57,236 bases of DNA from Candidatus Burarchaeum australiense. GTDB lineage: Archaea; Micrarchaeota; Micrarchaeia; Burarchaeales; Burarchaeaceae. Under the pieces are notes generated by a model, which worked only from the letters and a program-made list of their open reading frames with translations, made no database searches and was not told the origin of the DNA. Both the position numbers and the translations under genes were made by a program. How positions within the stretch are numbered: the first letter of the stretch is position 1; every line of letters begins with the position of its first letter. Below are positions 2,206-56,509 of the stretch, piece after piece. The stretch spans positions 1 to 57,236 of the forward strand of contig CABMJK010000014.1 in assembly GCA_902386535.1 (NCBI GenBank). Reading direction: 5' to 3'.

Positions 2206-2448
2206 ATTGCTGCACAATGAGGCACTTTCGTGCCTAGGCTAGCGACGAAGATGGAGTTAGGGGATTGACGAGGAAGCTACGGGTTTGGCATAAGGTCGGT
2301 TTGCAGATGGAAGGTGCTGTGGTGAATAACTCACGTCGGAGAGCGTAATTTCGGCTACGACGTATAATCACCACAGCAGATGGAAGGTGGCTCAAGGATA
2401 GTGTTAAAAGCCTGAAAAGGCATAAAGAATAGCTATTCCTGAGGTGTT

Positions 2449-4002: not shown

Positions 4003-4198
4003 GTTAGGCTTGCATTTTAGCTGGCGCCAGTTAGCGGGTCCTGTGTCTTGAATTCGCCTAGCCCCCGTCCTCGCTTTTCTTGTCCGAGATTTCGGCCTCA
4101 AGTTGCTCGTGGATCAGGTAGTGCAGTATAAATAGCTTGTTCTAGGTATTTGACGAGGCTACAGCCAGATCGCGGTACACCTATAGTATAAAGCTAGA

Positions 4199-4284
4199 TG
4201 TGGGGGGAGGGATTTGAACCCTCGAACTCACTAAGAGACAAGGTCCTGAGCCTTGCGCCTTTGACCAGACTTGGCGACCCCCAC
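4199..4284 (-). tRNA. tRNA-Leu (anticodon CAG), type II with long variable arm
   Basis: Hand-folded. Acceptor GTGGGGG/CCCCCAC, anticodon stem CAAGG/CCTTG, loop CTCAGGA, variable arm CTC-TTAGT-GAG, T arm GAGGG-TTCAAAT-CCCTC, discriminator A. Confidence 0.85.
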
Positions 4285-4285
4285 C

Positions 4286-4306
4286 AAAAGAACCTACGGT
4301 TCTTTT
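4286..4306 (-). other. hairpin AAAAGAACC-GTA-GGTTCTTTT in the tRNA-Pro/tRNA-Leu spacer, just 5' of tRNA-Leu
   Basis: Perfect 9-bp stem with a 3-nt loop. The core AACCGTAGGTT is shared with the tRNA-Ile leader and intron repeat. Confidence 0.6.
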
Positions 4307-4330
4307 GAGAACTCCCTTCTTCAATGCGAG

Positions 4331-4403
4331 TGGGGCCGCCGAGATTTGAACTCAGGTCTCTAGGTCCCGAACCTAGTAGCATACCAGGCTAGCCCACGGC
4401 CCC
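4331..4403 (-). tRNA. tRNA-Pro (anticodon CGG)
   Basis: Hand-folded. Acceptor GGGGCCG/CGGCCCC, anticodon stem CTAGG/CCTAG, loop TTCGGGA, T arm CTGAG-TTCAAAT-CTCGG, discriminator A. Confidence 0.85.
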
Positions 4404-4433
4404 CTCAGGTATCCCTTCTTTTTCCGTCGATAG

Positions 4434-4443
4434 TATTTATTAA
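4434..4443. promoter_or_regulatory. shared AT-rich TATA element between divergent tRNA-Pro and argS
   Basis: TATTTATTAA lies about 25 nt upstream of the argS ATG (4467) and about 31-40 nt upstream of the tRNA-Pro 5' end (4403) on the other strand. Confidence 0.35.
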
Positions 4444-4466
4444 GTATTTCACCTTTTAATTCCCCC

Positions 4467-6370
4467 ATGACGGCCGACCCGTATCAGCAGGTGCGCGAGG
4501 AGATAGCGAAAAGGCTAGAGGAGGCTTGCCGCTTCTCAGGCTACGCGATCCACCTCACTGACGTGCTGCGCTCGCTCGAGGATGCCAAGCCCGAGTTCGG
4601 CGAAATTGCCTCCACCATTGCATTCACGATTGCAAAAAGCGCGCGCCGCAACCCGAAGGAAATAGCGCTCGAGCTTGCGAAGCGCTTCCCCGAGCACAGG
4701 TTCATTGAAAGGTGCGAGGTGCTCGGCCCCTATCTGAACTTCAGGCTCAGCACAGAATTCCTGAAATACGCGATTGACTCTGCCGTCGACCAGAACCGCA
4801 CCTACGGTTCGCGTGAGCCCAACGGCAAGCACGTCTACGTGGAATTCCCGTCAGTCAATCCGAACAAGCCCTGGCATATCGGCCACCTGCGCAACGCTTT
4901 GCTCGGCGACTCGGTCGCGCGCCTCCTTGCATTCACGGGCTTCGACGTCAAGCGCCTGGACTACATCGATGACCTTGGCCTTCAGGTCGCGCAGAGCGTC
5001 TGGGGTTATCTCAATATGAGCAACAAGATTGACATGAAGGCAGACCAATGGCTCGGCCGCCAGTACGTCGAAGTGGCCAAGCGCATCGCCGACCCCGAAG
5101 TGGAAAAGCAGGTGCGCGAGATAGTCGAGATAATGGAAAAGGGCGACCCGCTTTCCGCCGGTGCGGAAAGGGGCCCCTTTACCGAAGGTAAAGTGGGGGG
5201 CGAGATTTCGGCGACCGCGCGCAAGCTCTGCTCCCAGTGCGTAACGGCGCAATACGAAACCGCCTTCAGGCTCGGCATCTACCATGATTTGCTGATATGG
5301 GAAAGCGACCTCGTGCAGGCGCGCCTGCTCGAGCGCGCGATGGAAAAGGCCAAGGCCCTGGGCGCGGTGCAGATGAGACCGAGGGCAAGAACGCGGGCTG
5401 CCTTGTCGCAAAGCTCGCCGGGCGCGAGGAGTTCGCGCAGATGGAAAGCCCGGACAAGGTGCTGCTGCGCTCGGACGGCACTGCCACCTATGCGGCAAAA
5501 GACCTGGCCTTCGCGCTCTGGAAGTTCGGCGTGATAGATGCGCAGCTGAAATTCTCGGAGTTCCTCAAGCAGCCCAACGGCACCGCGCTTCTAACCTCCT
5601 CGCGGCAGGGCTCAAGTTCGCGCTTCCCTCCCGCTTCCGCAGCCATCAATGTGATAGGCGTCGAGCAGCAATATCCGCAGCGCGTTCTTTCGCTTCTCAT
5701 GGAGTCCATGGGCTTTGGCGAGCAGGCGGCCAACTACGTGCACCTTTCCTACGAGCACGCGGGCCTGCCCGACAAGAAGTTCTCGGGCCGCGAAGGCTCC
5801 TGGGTCGGCTACAGCGCCGACGAGGTAATAGACGAGGCCGAGGCGCGTGCCCTTACTGAAATACGCGCGCGCTTCGCGGACATGGCCGAGGACGAGAAGG
5901 CAAAGATAGCGCGCTCGGTGGGCATAGGCGCGGTGCGCTTCGACATGCTCAGGACCACGCCCGAGAAGAAAATAACTTTCACCTGGGAGAAGGCGCTGAA
6001 CTTCGAGGGCGATTCCGCGCCCTACATCCAATACTCGCACGCGCGCTGCACCCGCATACTCGAGAAGGCCGGCGAGGTGCTCTTCGGCGATATCAGCCTT
6101 CTGTCGGAAGCCGAGGAGCGCGACCTGGCCATGCACCTGGCCCGCTTCCCCAGCAAGGTCTCGCACGCGGCCATCGACATGCGGCCCCACCTGATAGCGG
6201 AATATTTGCTCGAGCTCTCGGCGCTCTTCAGCAAATTCTACAGTGCCTGCCCGGTTTTGAAGGCCGAGCCCCGCATGATGGAGGCCAGGCTCAAGCTCGT
6301 GAAGGCAACCCAGATAGTTCTTCGCAACGGCCTGAACCTGCTCGGAGTCGATGCGCCGGAGAGGATGTGA
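4467..6370 (+). CDS. argS: arginine--tRNA ligase, interrupted by an apparent 1-nt frameshift near 5372-5376
   Basis: The N-terminal part in frame 4467 carries the HIGH-type motif PWHIGHLRN. The C-terminal part in frame 5297 reads ...ETEGKNAGCLVAKL...LRSDGTATYAAKDLAF...YIQYSHARC...VDAPERM. The two frames overlap and together give a full-length ArgRS. Confidence 0.9.
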
Positions 6371-7826: not shown

Positions 7827-8057
7827 GGGCCCGTGGCGCAGCCTGGAGCCCTTTCTTTCTTGTAAGAAAGAAAGCCCTCCTCTTTCCGCTTCGCGGAAAG
7901 GGACACCATTCCGTGATACGGAATGCGTGTCGGGTAAAGAAAGAACTGTAGGCGGGTAAATAGCGCGGCAGCCTTCTAAGCTGATGGTCGCGAGTTCAAA
8001 AGCCTTGCTGCTTCGCAGCAAGATTTGCCAGCAAGGCTGACAATCTCGCCGGGCCCG
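7827..8057 (+). tRNA. tRNA-Arg (anticodon TCT) with two non-canonical introns: D-loop about 7847-7960 and T-loop about 8001-8043
   Basis: The exons reassemble into GGGCCCG-TG-GCGC-AGCCTGG..TA-GCGC-G-GCAGC-CTTCTAA-GCTGA-TGGTC-GCGAG-TTCAAA..T-CTCGC-CGGGCCC-G. Both inserts are rich in hairpins. Confidence 0.75.
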
Positions 8058-16876: not shown

Positions 16877-18433
16877 TCACAAACTCGTCTTCGCATCCAG
16901 TATCAGCTGCCTGATCTTCTCGCCCAGCCCCTTGATGGGCACCCTTTCCTGCCTCCCGTCATTCCTATACCTGATGGTCACGCTCCCCTTTTCCATGCTC
17001 TCGTAATCGAAAGTTATGCAGTAGGGCACGCCAATCTCGTCGGCCCTCGCATACCTCTTCCCAATCGAGCCGCTCTCATCATAATAGACTGACAGCCCCT
17101 CGTGCCTGAGCTCGCGCGCAACCAATTCGGCCTTCTCTGCCAGCCCGTCCTTCTTCATGAGCGGGAAAATGCAGGCGTCGAAGGGCGCGACAATTGGCGG
17201 GAAGTCAAACCATGCCCAGTCCCTCTTCTCCGCCCCGCCGCCCTTGCGATAGCCTTGCTCCAGAATGGCCCAGAACAGCCTGTCCACTCCGAAGGAAGGC
17301 TCGACCACGTGCGGCATGATTCTTCCAACACCCTCCAAATGCACGCTCAAATCCTGCGAGCTCGCCTTCGCATGGCTGGCCAAGTCAAAGTCGGTCCTGT
17401 AAGCCAGGCCCATCAGCTCCACCACGCCATAGCCCGACTCGACCTCGACATCGAAATTGCCCTTCGAATAGTGCGGCATCTCATTCGGCAGCAGCTGCCT
17501 GAACCAGAACTTCTCGCGCTTCAGGCCCACGGCCTCATAGAACTGCGAGGTGCGGTGCATGAAATAAGCGACAATCTCGTTCGGCACAATCTTCTTCTCC
17601 ACCAGCTCGCTGCACGAAAACTCCCTTACCCCCGTCTCGCCAGAACCTACGGTTCCGGCACCTCCCTCCATTTGCTGCATCTCCGCGGTCCTCACGCGCA
17701 CCCTTTTCTCCCTCACTTCCGCGAAATGCGGGTGCTTTGCCTCTGCCGAGTTGAAGAAATACTCGAGCTCCATCTGCGTGAACTCGCGCAGCCTCATGAG
17801 CGCCTGCCTCGGCGCAATCTCATTGCGGAAGCTCTTGCCAATCTGCCCCACGCCCAGCGGCAGCTTCGCCCCGAGCGCCCTGAAGATGCGCGGGAAGTCG
17901 GTGAAAATTCCCTGCGCCGTCTCGGGCCGCAAATAGCCTTTCTCAGCCTCGCCCGCCCCGATGCTGGTCTGGAACATCAGATTGAACCACACGACCTCTC
18001 CGTACTGTCCGCCGCACTTCCCGCACTTAATCCCTTTCTCCTTTATGAGCGCATCCATCTCGGCAGGCTTCATGCCCTCCGCCTTCTGCTTCGTCACTTC
18101 CTCAATCAGCTTGTCAGCCCGCACCCTAGTCTTGCACTTCCTGCACTGCACCATGGCATCGCCGAAATTGTCGACATGCCCGCTGGCCTTGAGCACTGGC
18201 TCGGGCAGCACGCTCGCGCTCTCAATCTCGTAGAACCCTTCGCGCCAAAGGAAAAGCTCGCGCCACGCATTCTCAATCTTCCTCTTCATCGCGGCCCCGA
18301 CCACGCCGTAGTCATAGAAGCCCGCCGTGTGCCCGTATATCTCGTTCGAGGGCATGAGGAAATTCCTTTTGAGCGCGATTTCCATGAGCTCTTCTTGCAC
18401 TTCAACAACCTCGTTCTCCCTATTGCCCGCCAT
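16877..18433 (-). CDS. glyS: glycine--tRNA ligase (archaeal/eukaryotic alpha2 type)
   Basis: FRNEIAPRQALMRLREFTQMELEYF, EPSFGVDR and an anticodon-binding C-terminus, all typical of class II GlyRS. Confidence 0.95.
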   Translation of the reverse strand: MAGNRENEVVEVQEELMEIALKRNFLMPSNEIYGHTAGFYDYGVVGAAMKRKIENAWRELFLWREGFYEIESASVLPEPVLKASGHVDNFGDAMVQCRKCKTRVRADKLIEEVTKQKAEGMKPAEMDALIKEKGIKCGKCGGQYGEVVWFNLMFQTSIGAGEAEKGYLRPETAQGIFTDFPRIFRALGAKLPLGVGQIGKSFRNEIAPRQALMRLREFTQMELEYFFNSAEAKHPHFAEVREKRVRVRTAEMQQMEGGAGTVGSGETGVREFSCSELVEKKIVPNEIVAYFMHRTSQFYEAVGLKREKFWFRQLLPNEMPHYSKGNFDVEVESGYGVVELMGLAYRTDFDLASHAKASSQDLSVHLEGVGRIMPHVVEPSFGVDRLFWAILEQGYRKGGGAEKRDWAWFDFPPIVAPFDACIFPLMKKDGLAEKAELVARELRHEGLSVYYDESGSIGKRYARADEIGVPYCITFDYESMEKGSVTIRYRNDGRQERVPIKGLGEKIRQLILDAKTSL

Positions 18434-26616: not shown

Positions 26617-29600
26617 TCAACCACCTGAAGTATTGTAGGGCGGATAGTAGGGCGTTTCGTTGGCCGGCGGCGTAGCGGGCTCTTCGGGAGGCTCCTCAGG
26701 CGCAAGCGGCCCGTAATAATAATAGCCGTCAGCGCACTTCCAGTTGTTGTTCCTGTTCGTCTCATCCACCCGCTTTTCCATGTCAATCACCGCGCAGATG
26801 ATGTAGCCATTGTCAGCCAAGTCCTGCTCGGTCACCTTCTCGGGAGCGCCGCCTTTCAGATATGAATAAGACTCCCCGCCCGCTATGCCCGAGTGCGCCT
26901 GCTCCCCGTTGATCGAGCTGCCGTTCACGGAGCCAAGCCTCACGTCGAACCTGAAGTAGCCGGAGAAGTTCCTGCCGCCGTTCTTTATCACCACGCTAAT
27001 CAGGTGCTGTCCTACGCCGCCCAAATCCTTTGTGAATGAAATGGACTCGATGTAAAGGTCGATACTGGTCCGGGGCGCGCCCGGCTGGAACGAGAATATG
27101 CCTTCATTGTTGTCCTCATTGCTCTCCTCCAGCACGTGGTCGGGGTCAAGTATGAACTCGAACGCATCCCAGCCCTCGTTCACTGTTGTCAGGTGCTTGT
27201 GGTAAACCCACCATTTAACGGGTATTTTCTTGTACGATTCCGGCACAGGCGAGTACAGCTGGGACTTCATGCCGGCGCCCGGCCCTCCGATGATGCCTGC
27301 GCCAGTGCCGTTTGCGCTGCTGCCCGTAAGTGTGTCATCCACGTTGAATGAAGTATTCATTTCCGACCCACCGCGCTCCTTCATTATCTCGTCGTACAGC
27401 GTGCTTTCCCTGAAATTCGCTCCCGCGCCCGAGGCCACTCCGCCCGCCGGCGAACCAACCGGCGCTGCGCCTACGGTGCTATTTTCTCTGTCAAGGCCCG
27501 TCAGATTCAGCGTAATCCACTGCTGATAGGGCGCATCAGATGCCACTGTCCCTTCCTCCCAGCCTATTTTATTTCTGGTCCTAAAGACTCCTTTCGGCGG
27601 GGAAATGTCGCCCACCACGCGCATAACAGCATACGCGTCATACGTATCATACTGCCTTATGTCATCCGGCTTCACGGAAAGCGATTCTATGCCTGCATCC
27701 GGCCGGAAGGCCATTATCACGTACTTCTCGGCGCTCTTCTGCTTGTTCTCCGGGTGCAAGTCGAGCGCGCACACTATCTTGGCGGTTATGTTGTGCATGC
27801 CCTCCGAGTGGGGCGTCCAGTTCACATAGATGGTGCGGGAGCCGCCCCAGGACCAGCTGACGTTTGCAAACTCGGTCGCATTGTCATAGAAGCGCACGCT
27901 CGCATTCGCAGTTATCGGATATGGTGCGAGATACTCCACATCCACCCGTATCACGCCCGGCGCACCGTTCTCAACCATTTTCTCCTCCGGCAACTTGAAA
28001 TATGTAATGGCATATTGGGGGTTGTATACGTAGGCAGTCAGCGAGTCCAAATCTTTTCTTCCCACGGTATCATTCACCATTAGCGTATAGATGTACGTGC
28101 CTTCCTTGGCCTCGCTCCACTGCACCGGCTTCACTGCGCTCCAGTTGCCGATGAAATCGTACGCACCGCCGTTGAAGTTCCACGCGTACTGCGCCAGCGG
28201 ATAATCCTTTCCCACTGACTTGTTCGCATAAACGTAGAATTTCTCGCCCACCAGCACCTCAAAGGGCTTCACATAGCCCGGGCCCCATGCAGCGGCATAG
28301 GGTCCTTCCGAAGCATTCGTTTTCGCGCTCACATCCACCACATCATAATCATCCGGCTTCACGAGGTAGTAGTGGCCGGTCGCGCTCACATTGTATGCGG
28401 CCATTACCATGAAGTAGTATGTGGTGCTCGGCATCAGCCCCGTAACCGTGTAATTGGTCCGCGCAGGGTCGGTTATGAATGCCACGGGCACGCTGCACCT
28501 CGACCTTATGCCATCGTAGCTTATGTGGTTCTGCGAAACGCAGACGACATATGATTCGAAGAACTCGTTCCACACCCTATTCCACTGAAGGGGCACCGAG
28601 TCATGGTCTATCTTCTGCGGCTGCGTTATCTGCGCCCGCGTGCCCTCGAGCGTGCGCGCGTGCACGACAGTTGAGAATCTGGCAGCGCCGAATTTGTCCA
28701 CCGCCGAAACCTGATAGTAGCGGTCCACGCCCGGGTTCAGGTCTATAAATTCAGCAGTTGTCTTCGCCTTGTCCGTTATGTTGTAGAACAAAGTGCGCCC
28801 GCCGCCCGTGGCGTTTGTCCTGTAAACATGATACTCCTTGAAGTCCACGTCCTGGCACTCGTCCCACGCAACGGTGGCCTTTGTGTCGGTCACATCACTC
28901 ACCCACGTCTCGAACTCCGCGGGCGGATAGTTGCTGAAAGTCAGGGAGATATTGTACACGTTATTCTCGTTGAAGAAGTCATAGCCCGAGGAGAGCGTTG
29001 TGCCTTTCGGCCCTGTCCACGTTTGCTCTCCCGTCACTATCAGCGTGAGCGTGTATGCGCGCGGCTGGAACTTGTTGCTGTCAATCACTACAGTCAGCAC
29101 TCCGCCCGAGGGCGCGCCCGCAGGCGCGGGCAGCAGTGTCGTAGTGCTCTGCCCCAGCAAATTGCCGTTCGAATCATAGACATATGCCCGCACCTTCTTC
29201 GCCTCGCCGTGCCCGATGTTCTTCACAGGCACCTTTATCTCGAAATACCTGCCGACTATCGGGGTCGAATACTGCACCTCGCTCGGCTCCAGGCACACGT
29301 CCATCGAATATCTCACGTACATGTTGCCGAGCCTGCCCGCATCCGCCTCGCCGTAGCTCTTGAGCCCCTGCAAGACGGGCTGCATGAGGTTCTGCACGTA
29401 GGGTATTACGCACGCCGAGCCGAGCCCGAACTCCCAGTCATAGGCCTCCCACCCGCCTATCTGTATGATGCCGTCGGGCTGGTACTTGAGCAGCTCATAT
29501 TCCTTCCCAAGGCGCTTCACGAAGCTGTCCTCGCACTGCCAGCTCGCAAGCCCGTCCGAATCCGCTTTCTGCTTCATGCACGACAAGTCGTTCTTGTCCG

Positions 29601-56291: not shown

Positions 56292-56348
56292 GCCCCGGCA
56301 ACCGCCCGCGCGGACCGCTTAATCAGTTAAAAATATTCGCTAATGTAA

Positions 56349-56380
56349 AGGGAAGGTATCGGAAACCGTAGGTTTCTGAT
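56349..56380 (+). repeat. 32-nt direct repeat copy 1 (tRNA-Ile 5' leader)
   Basis: AGGGAAGGTATCGGAAACCGTAGGTTTCTGAT ends 4 nt before the tRNA 5' end. It contains the hairpin GAAACC-GTA-GGTTTC (56362-56376). Confidence 0.9.
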
Positions 56381-56384
56381 TTTT

Positions 56385-56509
56385 GGGCCGGTAGCTTAGC
56401 CTGGTTGGAGCGCTCGGCTGATAGAACCCTGAAGGTTTCCGAGGGAAGGTATCGGAAACCGTAGGTTTCTGATACCGAGAGGTCCTGCGTTCAAATCGCA
56501 GTCGGCCCA
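56385..56509 (+). tRNA. tRNA-Ile (anticodon GAT) with 50-nt canonical-position intron (56424-56473)
   Basis: The exons give GGGCCGG-TA-GCTT-AGCCTGGTTG-GAGC-G-CTCGG-CTGATA|A-CCGAG-AGGTC-CTGCG-TTCAAAT-CGCAG-TCGGCCC-A. The intron lies between positions 37 and 38. Confidence 0.85.
56442..56473 (+). repeat. 32-nt direct repeat copy 2 (last 32 nt of the tRNA-Ile intron)
   Basis: Identical to 56349-56380. It ends exactly at the predicted 3' splice site. Confidence 0.9.

What the first reader, a model, noticed from the sequence alone, without database searches (positions are those of the whole stretch)
4285..4330. Related leader hairpin (core AACCGTAGGTT) immediately 5' of tRNA-Leu
Read on the tRNA strand, the Pro-Leu spacer is ...GAAGAAGGGAGTTCTCAAAAGAACCGTAGGTTCTTTTG followed by tRNA-Leu. 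The tRNA-Ile leader is ...AAGGGAAGGTATCGGAAACCGTAGGTTTCTGATTTT followed by the tRNA. Both have AAGGGA, then 11-13 nt, then a GTA-looped hairpin with the identical 11-nt core AACCGTAGGTT, then a T-rich run. Both end 1-4 nt before the mature 5' end. This looks like a conserved tRNA leader module that could act in promoter-proximal, terminator/anti-terminator or processing roles. I do not recognise it as a described element. tRNA-Arg and tRNA-Pro lack the hairpin.
Basis: seen in the sequence. Interest (0 to 1): 0.6.

Follow-up and report, generated by a model that had tools for sequence, protein, structure and literature searches.

The report
Dispersed hairpin cassette before tRNA-Leu
The hairpin in front of this archaeal tRNA-Leu gene is real: it is one copy of a small, mobile-looking "purine box plus hairpin" cassette that sits flush against about two thirds of the genome's tRNA genes, also fills intron ends, and recurs almost letter for letter in unrelated bacteria, so it is more likely a spreading leader element removed by RNase P than a dedicated tRNA signal.

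Summary
The Pro-Leu spacer (4285-4330, minus strand) carries a purine box and a 10-bp hairpin with a GUA loop, and the hairpin's last base touches G+1 of tRNA-Leu.

It is not a private feature. About 24 of about 36 tRNA genes in this 1.2-Mb Burarchaeum-like Micrarchaeota genome carry the same module or a CUUG-loop variant, usually 0-1 nt from +1. Stem pairs co-vary. The three other genomes searched from the same family also have it.

It is not tRNA-specific either:
- Copies lie at intron ends in both orientations.
- One is a 27-nt in-frame insertion in GlyRS.
- One lies between ribosomal-protein operon genes.
- Orthologous tRNAs carry different sub-types in sister genomes.
- Only 4 of 151 sampled genomes of the phylum have it.
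- Near-identical copies occur in CPR bacteria and in other metagenomic repeats.

RNase P RNA is present with or without the module.

Best reading: a dispersed, turnover-prone hairpin cassette that has colonised the discarded parts of pre-tRNAs. Here it is co-transcribed and removed by RNase Z and RNase P, and its role is structural or neutral.

There is no Rfam match, and the paper searches run here found no description of it. The scan noted the same cassette before, on this window and on another piece of this genome.

The parts
4285..4307 (-). Leader hairpin of tRNA-Leu: 5' arm 4307-4298, GUA loop 4297-4295, 3' arm 4294-4285. It is a 10-bp stem, and its last base abuts G+1 (4284).
   Evidence: It scores 46.1 bits with covariance model R1.
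4312..4318 (-). Purine box AAGGGAG, 4 nt upstream of the hairpin. It is the 5' part of the cassette.
   Evidence: A box (GGGAG/GGGAA, or GGAGG in the CUUG variant) precedes the aligned copies.
4285..4330 (-). The whole Pro-Leu spacer (46 nt). I see no TATA-like box in it, so tRNA-Leu is probably co-transcribed with tRNA-Pro.
   Evidence: The orthologous spacer in G002 keeps the module but not the 12 nt upstream of it.
4199..4284 (-). tRNA-Leu(CAG), no intron.
4331..4403 (-). tRNA-Pro(CGG).
4404..4423 (-). tRNA-Pro leader. It keeps a purine box (AAGGGA, 4417-4412) and a stem foot but no hairpin apex, so it is probably a deletion remnant of a cassette.
   Evidence: The G002 ortholog has a complete module flush with tRNA-Pro.
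4434..4443 (-). TATA-like box of the Pro-Leu unit (inferred promoter).
   Evidence: Read. Its position fits a transcription start a few nt before tRNA-Pro. Not tested.
56345..56380 (+). Sister copy, the tRNA-Ile leader cassette: box 56345-56356, hairpin 56358-56380, 4 nt before +1.
   Evidence: (49.2 bits).
56442..56473 (+). Sister copy at the 3' end of the tRNA-Ile intron (hairpin 56451-56473). It ends exactly at the 3' splice site.
   Evidence: (44.0 bits).
17643..17669 (-). A 27-nt in-frame insertion of box plus hairpin in the glycyl-tRNA synthetase gene (adds EGGAGTVGS).
   Evidence: (25.5 bits). It is absent from the orthologs of G001, G002, G007 and G015.

Best explanation
The element is one copy of a dispersed 35-45-nt cassette. 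The cassette is a single-stranded purine box (GUAAAGGGAG-like), then 2-4 nt, then a roughly 10-bp hairpin. The apex of the hairpin (AACC-GUA-GGUU) is almost invariant and its outer stem varies.

In the family Burarchaeaceae the cassette has accumulated in the parts of pre-tRNAs that are thrown away. These are 5' leaders, where the hairpin lies flush against nucleotide +1, and intron ends, where it lies flush against the exon.

At this locus the inferred sequence of events is as follows. The cassette is transcribed inside a Pro-Leu dicistronic precursor. It folds on its own into a 10-bp helix that abuts the acceptor stem. It is released when RNase Z cuts after tRNA-Pro and RNase P cuts before G+1 of tRNA-Leu.

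Any contribution to processing is probably structural. A self-contained helix would keep the leader from pairing with the tRNA body and would present the -1/+1 bond at a helix-helix junction. It may equally be neutral.

The family persists and changes by copy-and-paste, meaning insertion or gene conversion. It is not conserved locus by locus.

Shown: the existence of the family, the hairpin, the flush position, the turnover, the patchy and cross-domain distribution, and the presence of RNase P RNA. Inferred: co-transcription, RNase P as the cutting enzyme, and the structural or neutral role.
For: - Family and placement. There are 14 exact cores genome-wide, most directly 5' of tRNA 5' ends. 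Model R1 finds 16 strong copies in G000: 13 flush with tRNA starts, 2 at intron 3' ends and 1 after a coding-sequence stop. A CUUG-loop variant precedes 5 more tRNAs.
- Geometry. The gap to +1 is 0 nt in 10 of 18 copies and at most 4 nt in all. The stem is 10 bp in 11 of 18.
- Hairpin. 93% of cells are paired against 78% in shuffles, 5 of 10 pairs change on both sides, and 0 of 500 shuffles reach this.
- Orthologous Pro-Leu spacer in G002. The module is identical except that the closing pair is C-G in G000 and G-C in G002. The 12 nt upstream have diverged.
- Turnover. Orthologous tRNAs in G000, G001 and G002 carry different sub-types. C51 and C58 keep the 5' half of an old copy followed by a new complete copy. 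The Pro leader is a remnant.
- DNA-level insertion. There is a 27-nt in-frame insertion in GlyRS, and antisense copies lie in tRNA-Arg and tRNA-Val introns.
- Patchy spread. All 4 family genomes have it, but only 4 of 151 genomes sampled across the phylum do. A 26-nt match occurs in bacterial CPR contigs that carry DnaB and CysRS. The 21-nt hairpin occurs in 39 metagenome contigs in several unrelated contexts.
- RNase P RNA. It is present in G000 and in 28 of 31 relatives, whether or not they have the module.
Against: - The enrichment at tRNA 5' ends is extreme: 21 of about 26 copies fall in roughly 0.1% of the genome. Orientation is always sense, the position is flush and the stem length is uniform. 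These features look more like selection for a function, or a targeting mechanism, than passive tolerance. Neither has been identified.
- The apex is invariant across sub-types and genera. That fits recognition by a trans-acting factor, which this explanation does not name.
- No transcript data could be obtained, so co-transcription, the start site and the cutting enzyme are untested.
- No mobilising enzyme was found.
Confidence: 0.5

Rival explanations
1. The cassette is a recognition element for a trans-acting maturation factor. A protein or nuclease (the broad-specificity splicing endonuclease, or an unknown enzyme) binds the invariant apex. It then cuts at, or directs cutting to, the base of the 10-bp stem. 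This would give RNase-P-independent or RNase-P-assisted 5' end formation and would mark splice sites.
For: - The apex is invariant (8 invariant columns in 16 copies).
- Stem length is a uniform 10 bp, and the cleavage site lies at the foot of the stem in leaders.
- The same holds at intron 3' ends (Ile, Thr) and at intron 5' ends for antisense copies.
- A single-stranded box next to a hairpin is a common kind of protein-binding site (general knowledge).
Against: - The leader copy has no bulge-helix-bulge geometry.
- Derived leaders whose apex is disrupted by a roughly 55-nt insert keep only the basal stem.
- RNase P RNA is present.
- Many tRNAs in the same genome and nearly all relatives manage without the module.
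- The same cassette occurs in bacteria, which are not known to have the archaeal splicing endonuclease (general knowledge).
Confidence: 0.15
2. The cassette is a DNA-level operator. The perfect 5-3-5 palindrome at the apex would bind a dimeric transcription factor just downstream of the start site and co-regulate tRNA genes.
For: - The apex is a perfect interrupted palindrome between the TATA-like boxes and the tRNA in about 20 genes.
- Its sequence, not only its pairing, is conserved.
Against: - Outer stems co-vary to keep pairing, which an operator does not need.
- The distance from TATA varies (9-26 nt to the box) while the distance to +1 is fixed.
- Copies lie inside introns, in a coding sequence, in the promoter-less Pro-Leu spacer, and in bacteria.
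Confidence: 0.08
3. The cassette is a transcription terminator, insulator or anti-terminator (nut-like: a box plus a hairpin). It would shield tRNA genes from upstream read-through, or make RNA polymerase resistant to the T-runs inside intron-rich tRNA genes.
For: - In other organisms the same box plus hairpin sits 12-14 nt after stop codons, between convergent genes.
- The C22 copy of G000 follows a coding-sequence stop.
- The architecture of box, spacer and hairpin recalls BoxA/BoxB (general knowledge).
Against: - No T-run follows the stem at the Leu copy, and the terminator scan finds nothing.
- A terminator between Pro and Leu would silence a Leu gene in whose spacer I see no TATA-like box.
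- Archaeal termination needs oligo-T, not hairpins (general knowledge).
- Intron-less tRNAs also carry the cassette.
Confidence: 0.1
4. Chance resemblance, or a private duplication between two leaders in this window.
For: None beyond the small size of the motif.
Against: 0 of 100 shuffles reach the observed count. There are dozens of copies in four genomes, with covariation.
Confidence: 0.01

Closest known systems
Transposed tRNA-intron groups and leader-intron homology of disrupted archaeal tRNA genes (Fujishima, Sugahara, Kanai and co-workers; reviewed in PMC4090602, PMC2237900, PMC4033280; these papers appeared in search but were not read here, so the account of their content rests on my own knowledge)
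   Same: Near-identical short modules are shared by introns of different tRNAs and by a 5' leader. The lineage's relatives have a broad-specificity splicing endonuclease (PMC3239211). Modules are gained and lost quickly between close genomes.
   Different: Most copies here are 5' leaders of ordinary, unsplit tRNA genes and lie flush with +1. The unit has a fixed box-plus-hairpin architecture. It also occurs in a coding sequence, between protein genes, and in CPR bacteria. Leader copies form no bulge-helix-bulge.
REP/BIME-type and MITE-like dispersed palindromic repeats of bacteria (REPs are mobilised by RAYT/Y1 transposases)
   Same: It is a short imperfect palindrome present in tens of copies. 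It occurs in sub-types and is often found at gene ends between convergent genes in other organisms. It behaves as a copy-and-paste element.
   Different: No Y1 transposase was found in G000, G002, G003 or G007. The apex rather than the ends is conserved. In this family the copies are tied to RNA-processing junctions of tRNA genes.
Bulge-helix-bulge (hBHBh') splicing motif
   Same: In the tRNA-Ile intron, the 3' arm of the cassette can pair with the 5' splice junction instead. Read by hand, this gives a 4-bp helix flanked by two 3-nt bulges, with one U-U mismatch.
   Different: The leader copy is a continuous 10-bp hairpin without bulges, and it has no 5' exon.
Phage lambda nut / rRNA-operon BoxA-BoxB leader elements
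   Same: A single-stranded box a few nt from a short hairpin, located in the leader of stable-RNA transcripts.
   Different: There is no sequence similarity and no evidence of anti-termination. The resemblance is of architecture only and is recalled from general knowledge.

Membership tests
Any described RNA family (Rfam 15) | Match to a curated covariance model at or near its gathering score | tested here: not met
   In the window only the three tRNAs match. Around the CPR, Woesearchaeota and LFW copies only tRNAs match at E <= 0.1.
Bulge-helix-bulge splicing motif | Two 3-nt bulges on opposite strands separated by a 4-bp helix, flanked by helices | tested here: not met
   The Leu leader folds as an uninterrupted 10-bp stem with a 3-nt loop, flush with the acceptor stem. 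For the Ile intron copy, a bulge-helix-bulge can be drawn by hand using the 3' arm.
REP/RAYT or IS200/IS605-derived palindromic elements | Short imperfect palindrome dispersed in many copies | tested here: met
REP/RAYT or IS200/IS605-derived palindromic elements | A cognate Y1 (HUH) transposase encoded in genomes that carry the repeats | tested here: not met
   PF01797 was found in G001, G005, G017 and G029 only. It was not found in G000, G002, G003 or G007, which carry 11-25 copies each. These genomes are 77-95% complete.
Transposed intron / leader-intron homology groups of archaeal tRNA genes | The same module in introns of different tRNAs and in a 5' leader | tested here: met
   It occurs in the Ile leader, the Ile intron and the Thr(CGU) intron. 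It also occurs in the Thr(GGU) intron of G001.
Transposed intron / leader-intron homology groups of archaeal tRNA genes | Confined to tRNA genes and removed at bulge-helix-bulge sites | tested here: not met
   Copies lie in the GlyRS coding sequence, in the S19e/PDCD5-like spacer, after a coding-sequence stop and in bacterial repeats. Leader copies have no bulge-helix-bulge.
Intrinsic (hairpin plus T-run) terminator | G+C-rich stem followed by at least 5 T within 8 nt | tested here: not met
   There are 0 sites in 4100-4500 on either strand. The stem is followed directly by the tRNA.
C/D box sRNA | Box C (RUGAUGA) and box D (CUGA) brought together by terminal pairing | tested here: not met
   Read directly: the Leu copy has neither box. 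CUGA in the Ile-type copies is part of the stem.
RNase P substrate leader | Removed by RNase P at -1/+1 | not testable with these tools
   An RNase P RNA gene is present at C24:39914-40196, scoring 72 bits over the full model length. No sequencing run could be listed.

The most novel reading that the evidence does not exclude
The cassette would be a new kind of cross-domain (CPR bacteria and DPANN archaea) mobile hairpin element that homes to RNA-processing junctions. By landing next to tRNA 5' ends and inside tRNA bodies, it would supply ready-made helices from which bulge-helix-bulge introns and homologous leaders arise. That would make it a live source of archaeal tRNA gene disruption. Its invariant apex might be read by a still-unknown enzyme that measures about 10 bp to the cleavage or insertion site.
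Probability: 0.17. Interest if true: 0.85.

Novelty: new variant of a known kind. Interest (0 to 1): 0.62.

Why it matters
How archaeal tRNA genes acquire introns, and why introns and leaders of disrupted tRNA genes resemble each other, are old open questions. This family of genomes shows one small unit sitting in leaders, at both ends of introns, in a coding sequence and possibly in RNase P RNA. Sub-types have been swapped between sister genomes, and half-copies have been left behind. That makes a gain-and-loss process directly observable and testable.

The near-identity of the unit in CPR bacteria would also be a rare case of one small non-coding element shared across domains among ultra-small groundwater organisms.

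On the practical side, these flush leader hairpins and long introns may contribute to standard tRNA finders missing many tRNA genes in these genomes. ARAGORN found 25 genes and Rfam 16 above threshold, against about 36 counted here.

Tried and rejected
- Rfam gave no family for the module in the window or at foreign copies.
- Y1 transposase (PF01797) as mobiliser: not found in four module-rich genomes.
- Mimicry of 16S rRNA helix 45. The module shares CCGUAGG, and in one sub-type AAGGUAU, with the relatives' 16S 3' end. Local alignment scores are no better than shuffles, p = 0.23-0.98. The 16S gene of G000 itself is cut short by an ORF-bearing intron at a contig end.
- Pairing with RNase P RNA: the best match is 9 nt with two G-U pairs, which I estimate is about what chance would give.
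- Loss or oddity of RNase P as a reason for the hairpin: the RNA is present in 28 of 31 relatives, with or without the module.
- Bulge-helix-bulge at the leader: none.
- Terminator: none.
- Strand bias of wobble pairs as proof of RNA-level selection: 9 G-U against 3 A-C, mostly from one sub-type, so not decisive.
- Viral contigs: three patterns gave 0 hits.
- Expression: no RNA holder listed, and none of any kind was listed.
- Shared neighbour gene of the CPR repeat: none.
- Literature: no paper in the library describes such a leader element.

Full report
**What is at the coordinates**

On the minus strand the window carries tRNA-Pro(CGG) at 4403-4331, a 46-nt spacer at 4330-4285, and tRNA-Leu(CAG) at 4284-4199. 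The spacer contains:
- a purine box, AAGGGAG, at 4318-4312;
- 4 nt of spacing;
- a hairpin with a 10-bp stem and a GUA loop (5' arm 4307-4298, loop 4297-4295, 3' arm 4294-4285).

The last paired base (4285) is directly followed by G+1 of tRNA-Leu. The fold is the predicted minimum-energy structure: -12.8 kcal/mol, z = -1.95. The same 32 nt recur at the 3' end of that gene's intron.

**More than chance**

- With up to 1 mismatch the 11-nt core has 5 matches in the window against 0.33 expected, and none of 100 shuffles reaches 5.
- In the whole 1.197-Mb assembly (68 contigs, 57.6% G+C) there are 14 exact cores.
- A covariance model built from 16 copies (A2, R1) recovers those 16 at 37-54 bits plus weaker ones.
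- On A2 the 10-bp stem is 93% paired, against 78% in column shuffles. Five of its ten pairs change on both sides, and 0 of 500 shuffles reach the observed covariation. These are paralogues, so the statistic overstates independence. The outer stem clearly differs between sub-types while pairing is kept.

**How the module relates to tRNA genes in this genome**

I combined ARAGORN with introns allowed, Rfam, my own acceptor/T-arm search and the module hits. I count about 36 tRNA genes; some are known only from their 5' parts.
- 14 have the GUA-type module flush upstream.
- 5 have a variant with a CUUG loop and a GGAGG box.
- 3 have a module whose apex is interrupted by a two-hairpin insert of about 55 nt.
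- 2 have degenerate copies.
- About a dozen have none. These include both tRNA-Pro genes, both tRNA-Thr genes, tRNA-Phe and tRNA-Arg(UCU) at 7827.

In 18 measurable copies the gap to +1 is 0 nt (10 copies), 1 (3), 2 (1), 3 (2) or 4 (2). The stem is 10 bp in 11 of them. TATA-like boxes lie 9-26 nt upstream of the purine box (read by eye). So the distance to the promoter varies while the distance to the tRNA is fixed.

**Relatives**

- Contig lengths of G001 equal those of a Candidatus Burarchaeum MAG hit.
- The size, G+C content and redundancy of G000 match the published description of Ca. Burarchaeum australiense (PMC8561730). The genome is therefore a Burarchaeum-like member of the Micrarchaeota; this is an inference.
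- R1 finds 12, 25 and 20 copies in the three other genomes of the family, and 11 in one genome of another family. The other 26 relatives have 0-2 weak hits.
- In an even sample of 151 genomes of the phylum, only 4 have a hit at E <= 1e-4.
- In the family genomes the copies again lie flush with tRNA 5' ends.
- The best-scoring tRNAs of three module-free relatives have TATA-like boxes around -30, short leaders and no shared hairpin.

**The orthologous locus**

G002 has the same Pro-spacer-Leu arrangement.
- The module is identical to that of G000 except for the closing pair, which is C-G in G000 and G-C in G002. The 12 nt upstream of the box have diverged.
- In G002, tRNA-Pro also has a complete flush module. 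In G000 only a box and a stem foot remain (4423-4404).
- In G002, tRNA-Leu has a 48-nt intron that G000 lacks.

**Turnover and DNA-level insertion**

- Orthologous tRNAs carry different sub-types in G000, G001 and G002, even within one genus.
- At C58 and C51 of G000, the 5' half of an old sub-type (kept intact in G001 for C58) is followed by a new complete copy that now touches the tRNA.
- The glycyl-tRNA synthetase gene of G000 has a 27-nt in-frame insertion (17669-17643). It consists of a box plus most of a hairpin, and is absent from four orthologs, including the 88%-identical one of G001.
- Antisense copies sit at or near the 5' ends of introns in tRNA-Arg(UCG) and tRNA-Val, and in tRNA-Pro of other Micrarchaeota. 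Sense copies end at the 3' splice site of tRNA-Ile and tRNA-Thr. In the copies whose splice junction I read (Ile, Thr, Arg, and Pro of other Micrarchaeota), the hairpin end, not the box end, touches the mature sequence.
- One copy lies between the S19e and PDCD5-like genes, and one lies just after a coding-sequence stop.

**Outside the lineage**

- An exact 26-nt pattern of one sub-type occurs in other Micrarchaeota, in a Woesearchaeota MAG, and in four CPR bacterial MAGs: a Parcubacteria-group MAG, a Staskawiczbacteria MAG and a Saccharibacteria MAG.
- In the CPR MAGs it forms the apex of a nearly identical intergenic repeat of about 95 nt (A6). That repeat has no Rfam match and no shared neighbour gene.
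- The CPR contigs carry DnaB and a CysRS, so they are bacterial.
- The 21-nt hairpin of the Leu sub-type occurs in 39 metagenome contigs. Three are tRNA leaders of Burarchaeaceae type. About 14 carry the purine box in 28-57% G+C contigs, several of them 12-14 nt after a stop codon between convergent genes. About 20 belong to a low-G+C repeat with a 76-nt unit.
- In two other Micrarchaeota families the cassettes lie away from tRNA starts, and in one of them (G165) they form tandem arrays. In G007 at least one lies in a tRNA intron.

**What it most likely is and does**

All of this fits a dispersed copy-and-paste hairpin cassette. In Burarchaeaceae it has come to occupy the discarded parts of pre-tRNAs.

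RNase P RNA is encoded in G000 (72 bits over the full model length) and in 28 of 31 relatives regardless of the module. The simplest route is therefore co-transcription of Pro, spacer and Leu, followed by RNase Z after Pro and RNase P before G+1. I see no TATA-like box in the spacer.

The flush helix may serve as a structural insulator at the cleavage junction, or it may be neutral. Three things remain unexplained by passive tolerance, and they keep a recognition-element reading alive:
- the extreme enrichment at tRNA 5' ends;
- the constant orientation and stem length;
- the invariant apex.

Against that reading, leaders whose apex is broken by an insert keep only the basal stem. Leader copies have no bulge-helix-bulge. 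Most relatives do without the module.

**What I could not do**

No sequencing run could be listed, so the start site, the precursor and the chemistry of the ends are untested. No mobilising enzyme was identified; Y1 transposases do not co-occur with the module. Similarity to the 16S 3' end and pairing with RNase P RNA are at chance level.

**Novelty**

There is no Rfam family, and no paper in the searchable library describes this element. The closest known things are the transposed intron and leader-intron homology groups of archaeal tRNA genes, and bacterial REP-like repeats. It differs from both: from the first by its leader-flush placement, its occurrence outside tRNA genes and its cross-domain spread, and from the second by the lack of a Y1 transposase and by its conserved apex.

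Earlier notes of this scan already recorded the same cassette on this window (the tRNA-Ile pair) and on another piece of the genome. This report confirms and extends them. It does not reproduce the 'giant virus' copies with the three patterns tried.

Noticed in passing
window 17643-17669 (-): The glycyl-tRNA synthetase gene carries a 27-nt in-frame insertion (EGGAGTVGS) made of cassette sequence. Four orthologs lack it, including the ortholog from the same genus.
   Followed up: yes
G000 contig C24:39914-40196 (L001:1501-1783, -): The RNase P RNA of G000 is about 30-35 nt longer than that of G001 and G002. The extra stretch lies in the 5' region and contains a purine box and a GGUUCC-GAAA-GGAACC hairpin. 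It may be another cassette-like insertion.
   Followed up: partly
G000 C32 about 27055-27165 (-), C61 about 5400-5495 (+), C25 about 2258-2370 (-): Three leader hairpins are interrupted at the apex (two of them between AAC and CGUAGG) by a related two-hairpin insert of about 55 nt. The basal stem still closes the structure. No clear bulge-helix-bulge was seen.
   Followed up: partly
L080, L084-L086, L088, L090 (alignment A6): A nearly identical intergenic repeat of about 95 nt occurs in CPR bacterial MAGs, with the cassette hairpin at its apex. It has no Rfam match and no shared neighbour gene. In L084 it lies about 200-300 nt upstream of a Cas12a gene.
   Followed up: partly
L130, L133, L136, L151, L153, L165 and others: Low-G+C metagenome contigs carry the same 21-nt hairpin inside a repeat with a unit of about 76 nt. 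The rest of the unit holds a second hairpin, which also has a C-GUA-G loop.
   Followed up: no
G000 contig C54:1-1534 (-): The 16S rRNA gene is interrupted near model position 1173 by an insertion with an open reading frame, probably an intron-encoded endonuclease. The contig ends inside the insertion, so the 16S 3' end is missing from the assembly.
   Followed up: partly
L091:1420-1770 (G002) versus window 4190-4470: tRNA-Leu(CAG) has a 48-nt intron after position 37 in G002 and none in G000. tRNA-Pro has a full leader module in G002 and only a remnant in G000.
   Followed up: yes
L177, L178 (G165): Arrays of two or three box-plus-hairpin cassettes (GUA and UUG loop types mixed) lie in tandem, about 10-13 nt apart, ahead of what may be a start codon. 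The box resembles a Shine-Dalgarno sequence.
   Followed up: no
window 7847-7960: The D-loop intron of tRNA-Arg(UCU) contains a half-cassette-like stretch (GUAAAG ... AAC-UGUAGG) near its 3' end.
   Followed up: no
G000 C39:59290-59370 (-): A sense cassette with a UAC loop lies between the S19e gene and the start of a PDCD5-like gene in a ribosomal-protein cluster.
   Followed up: partly
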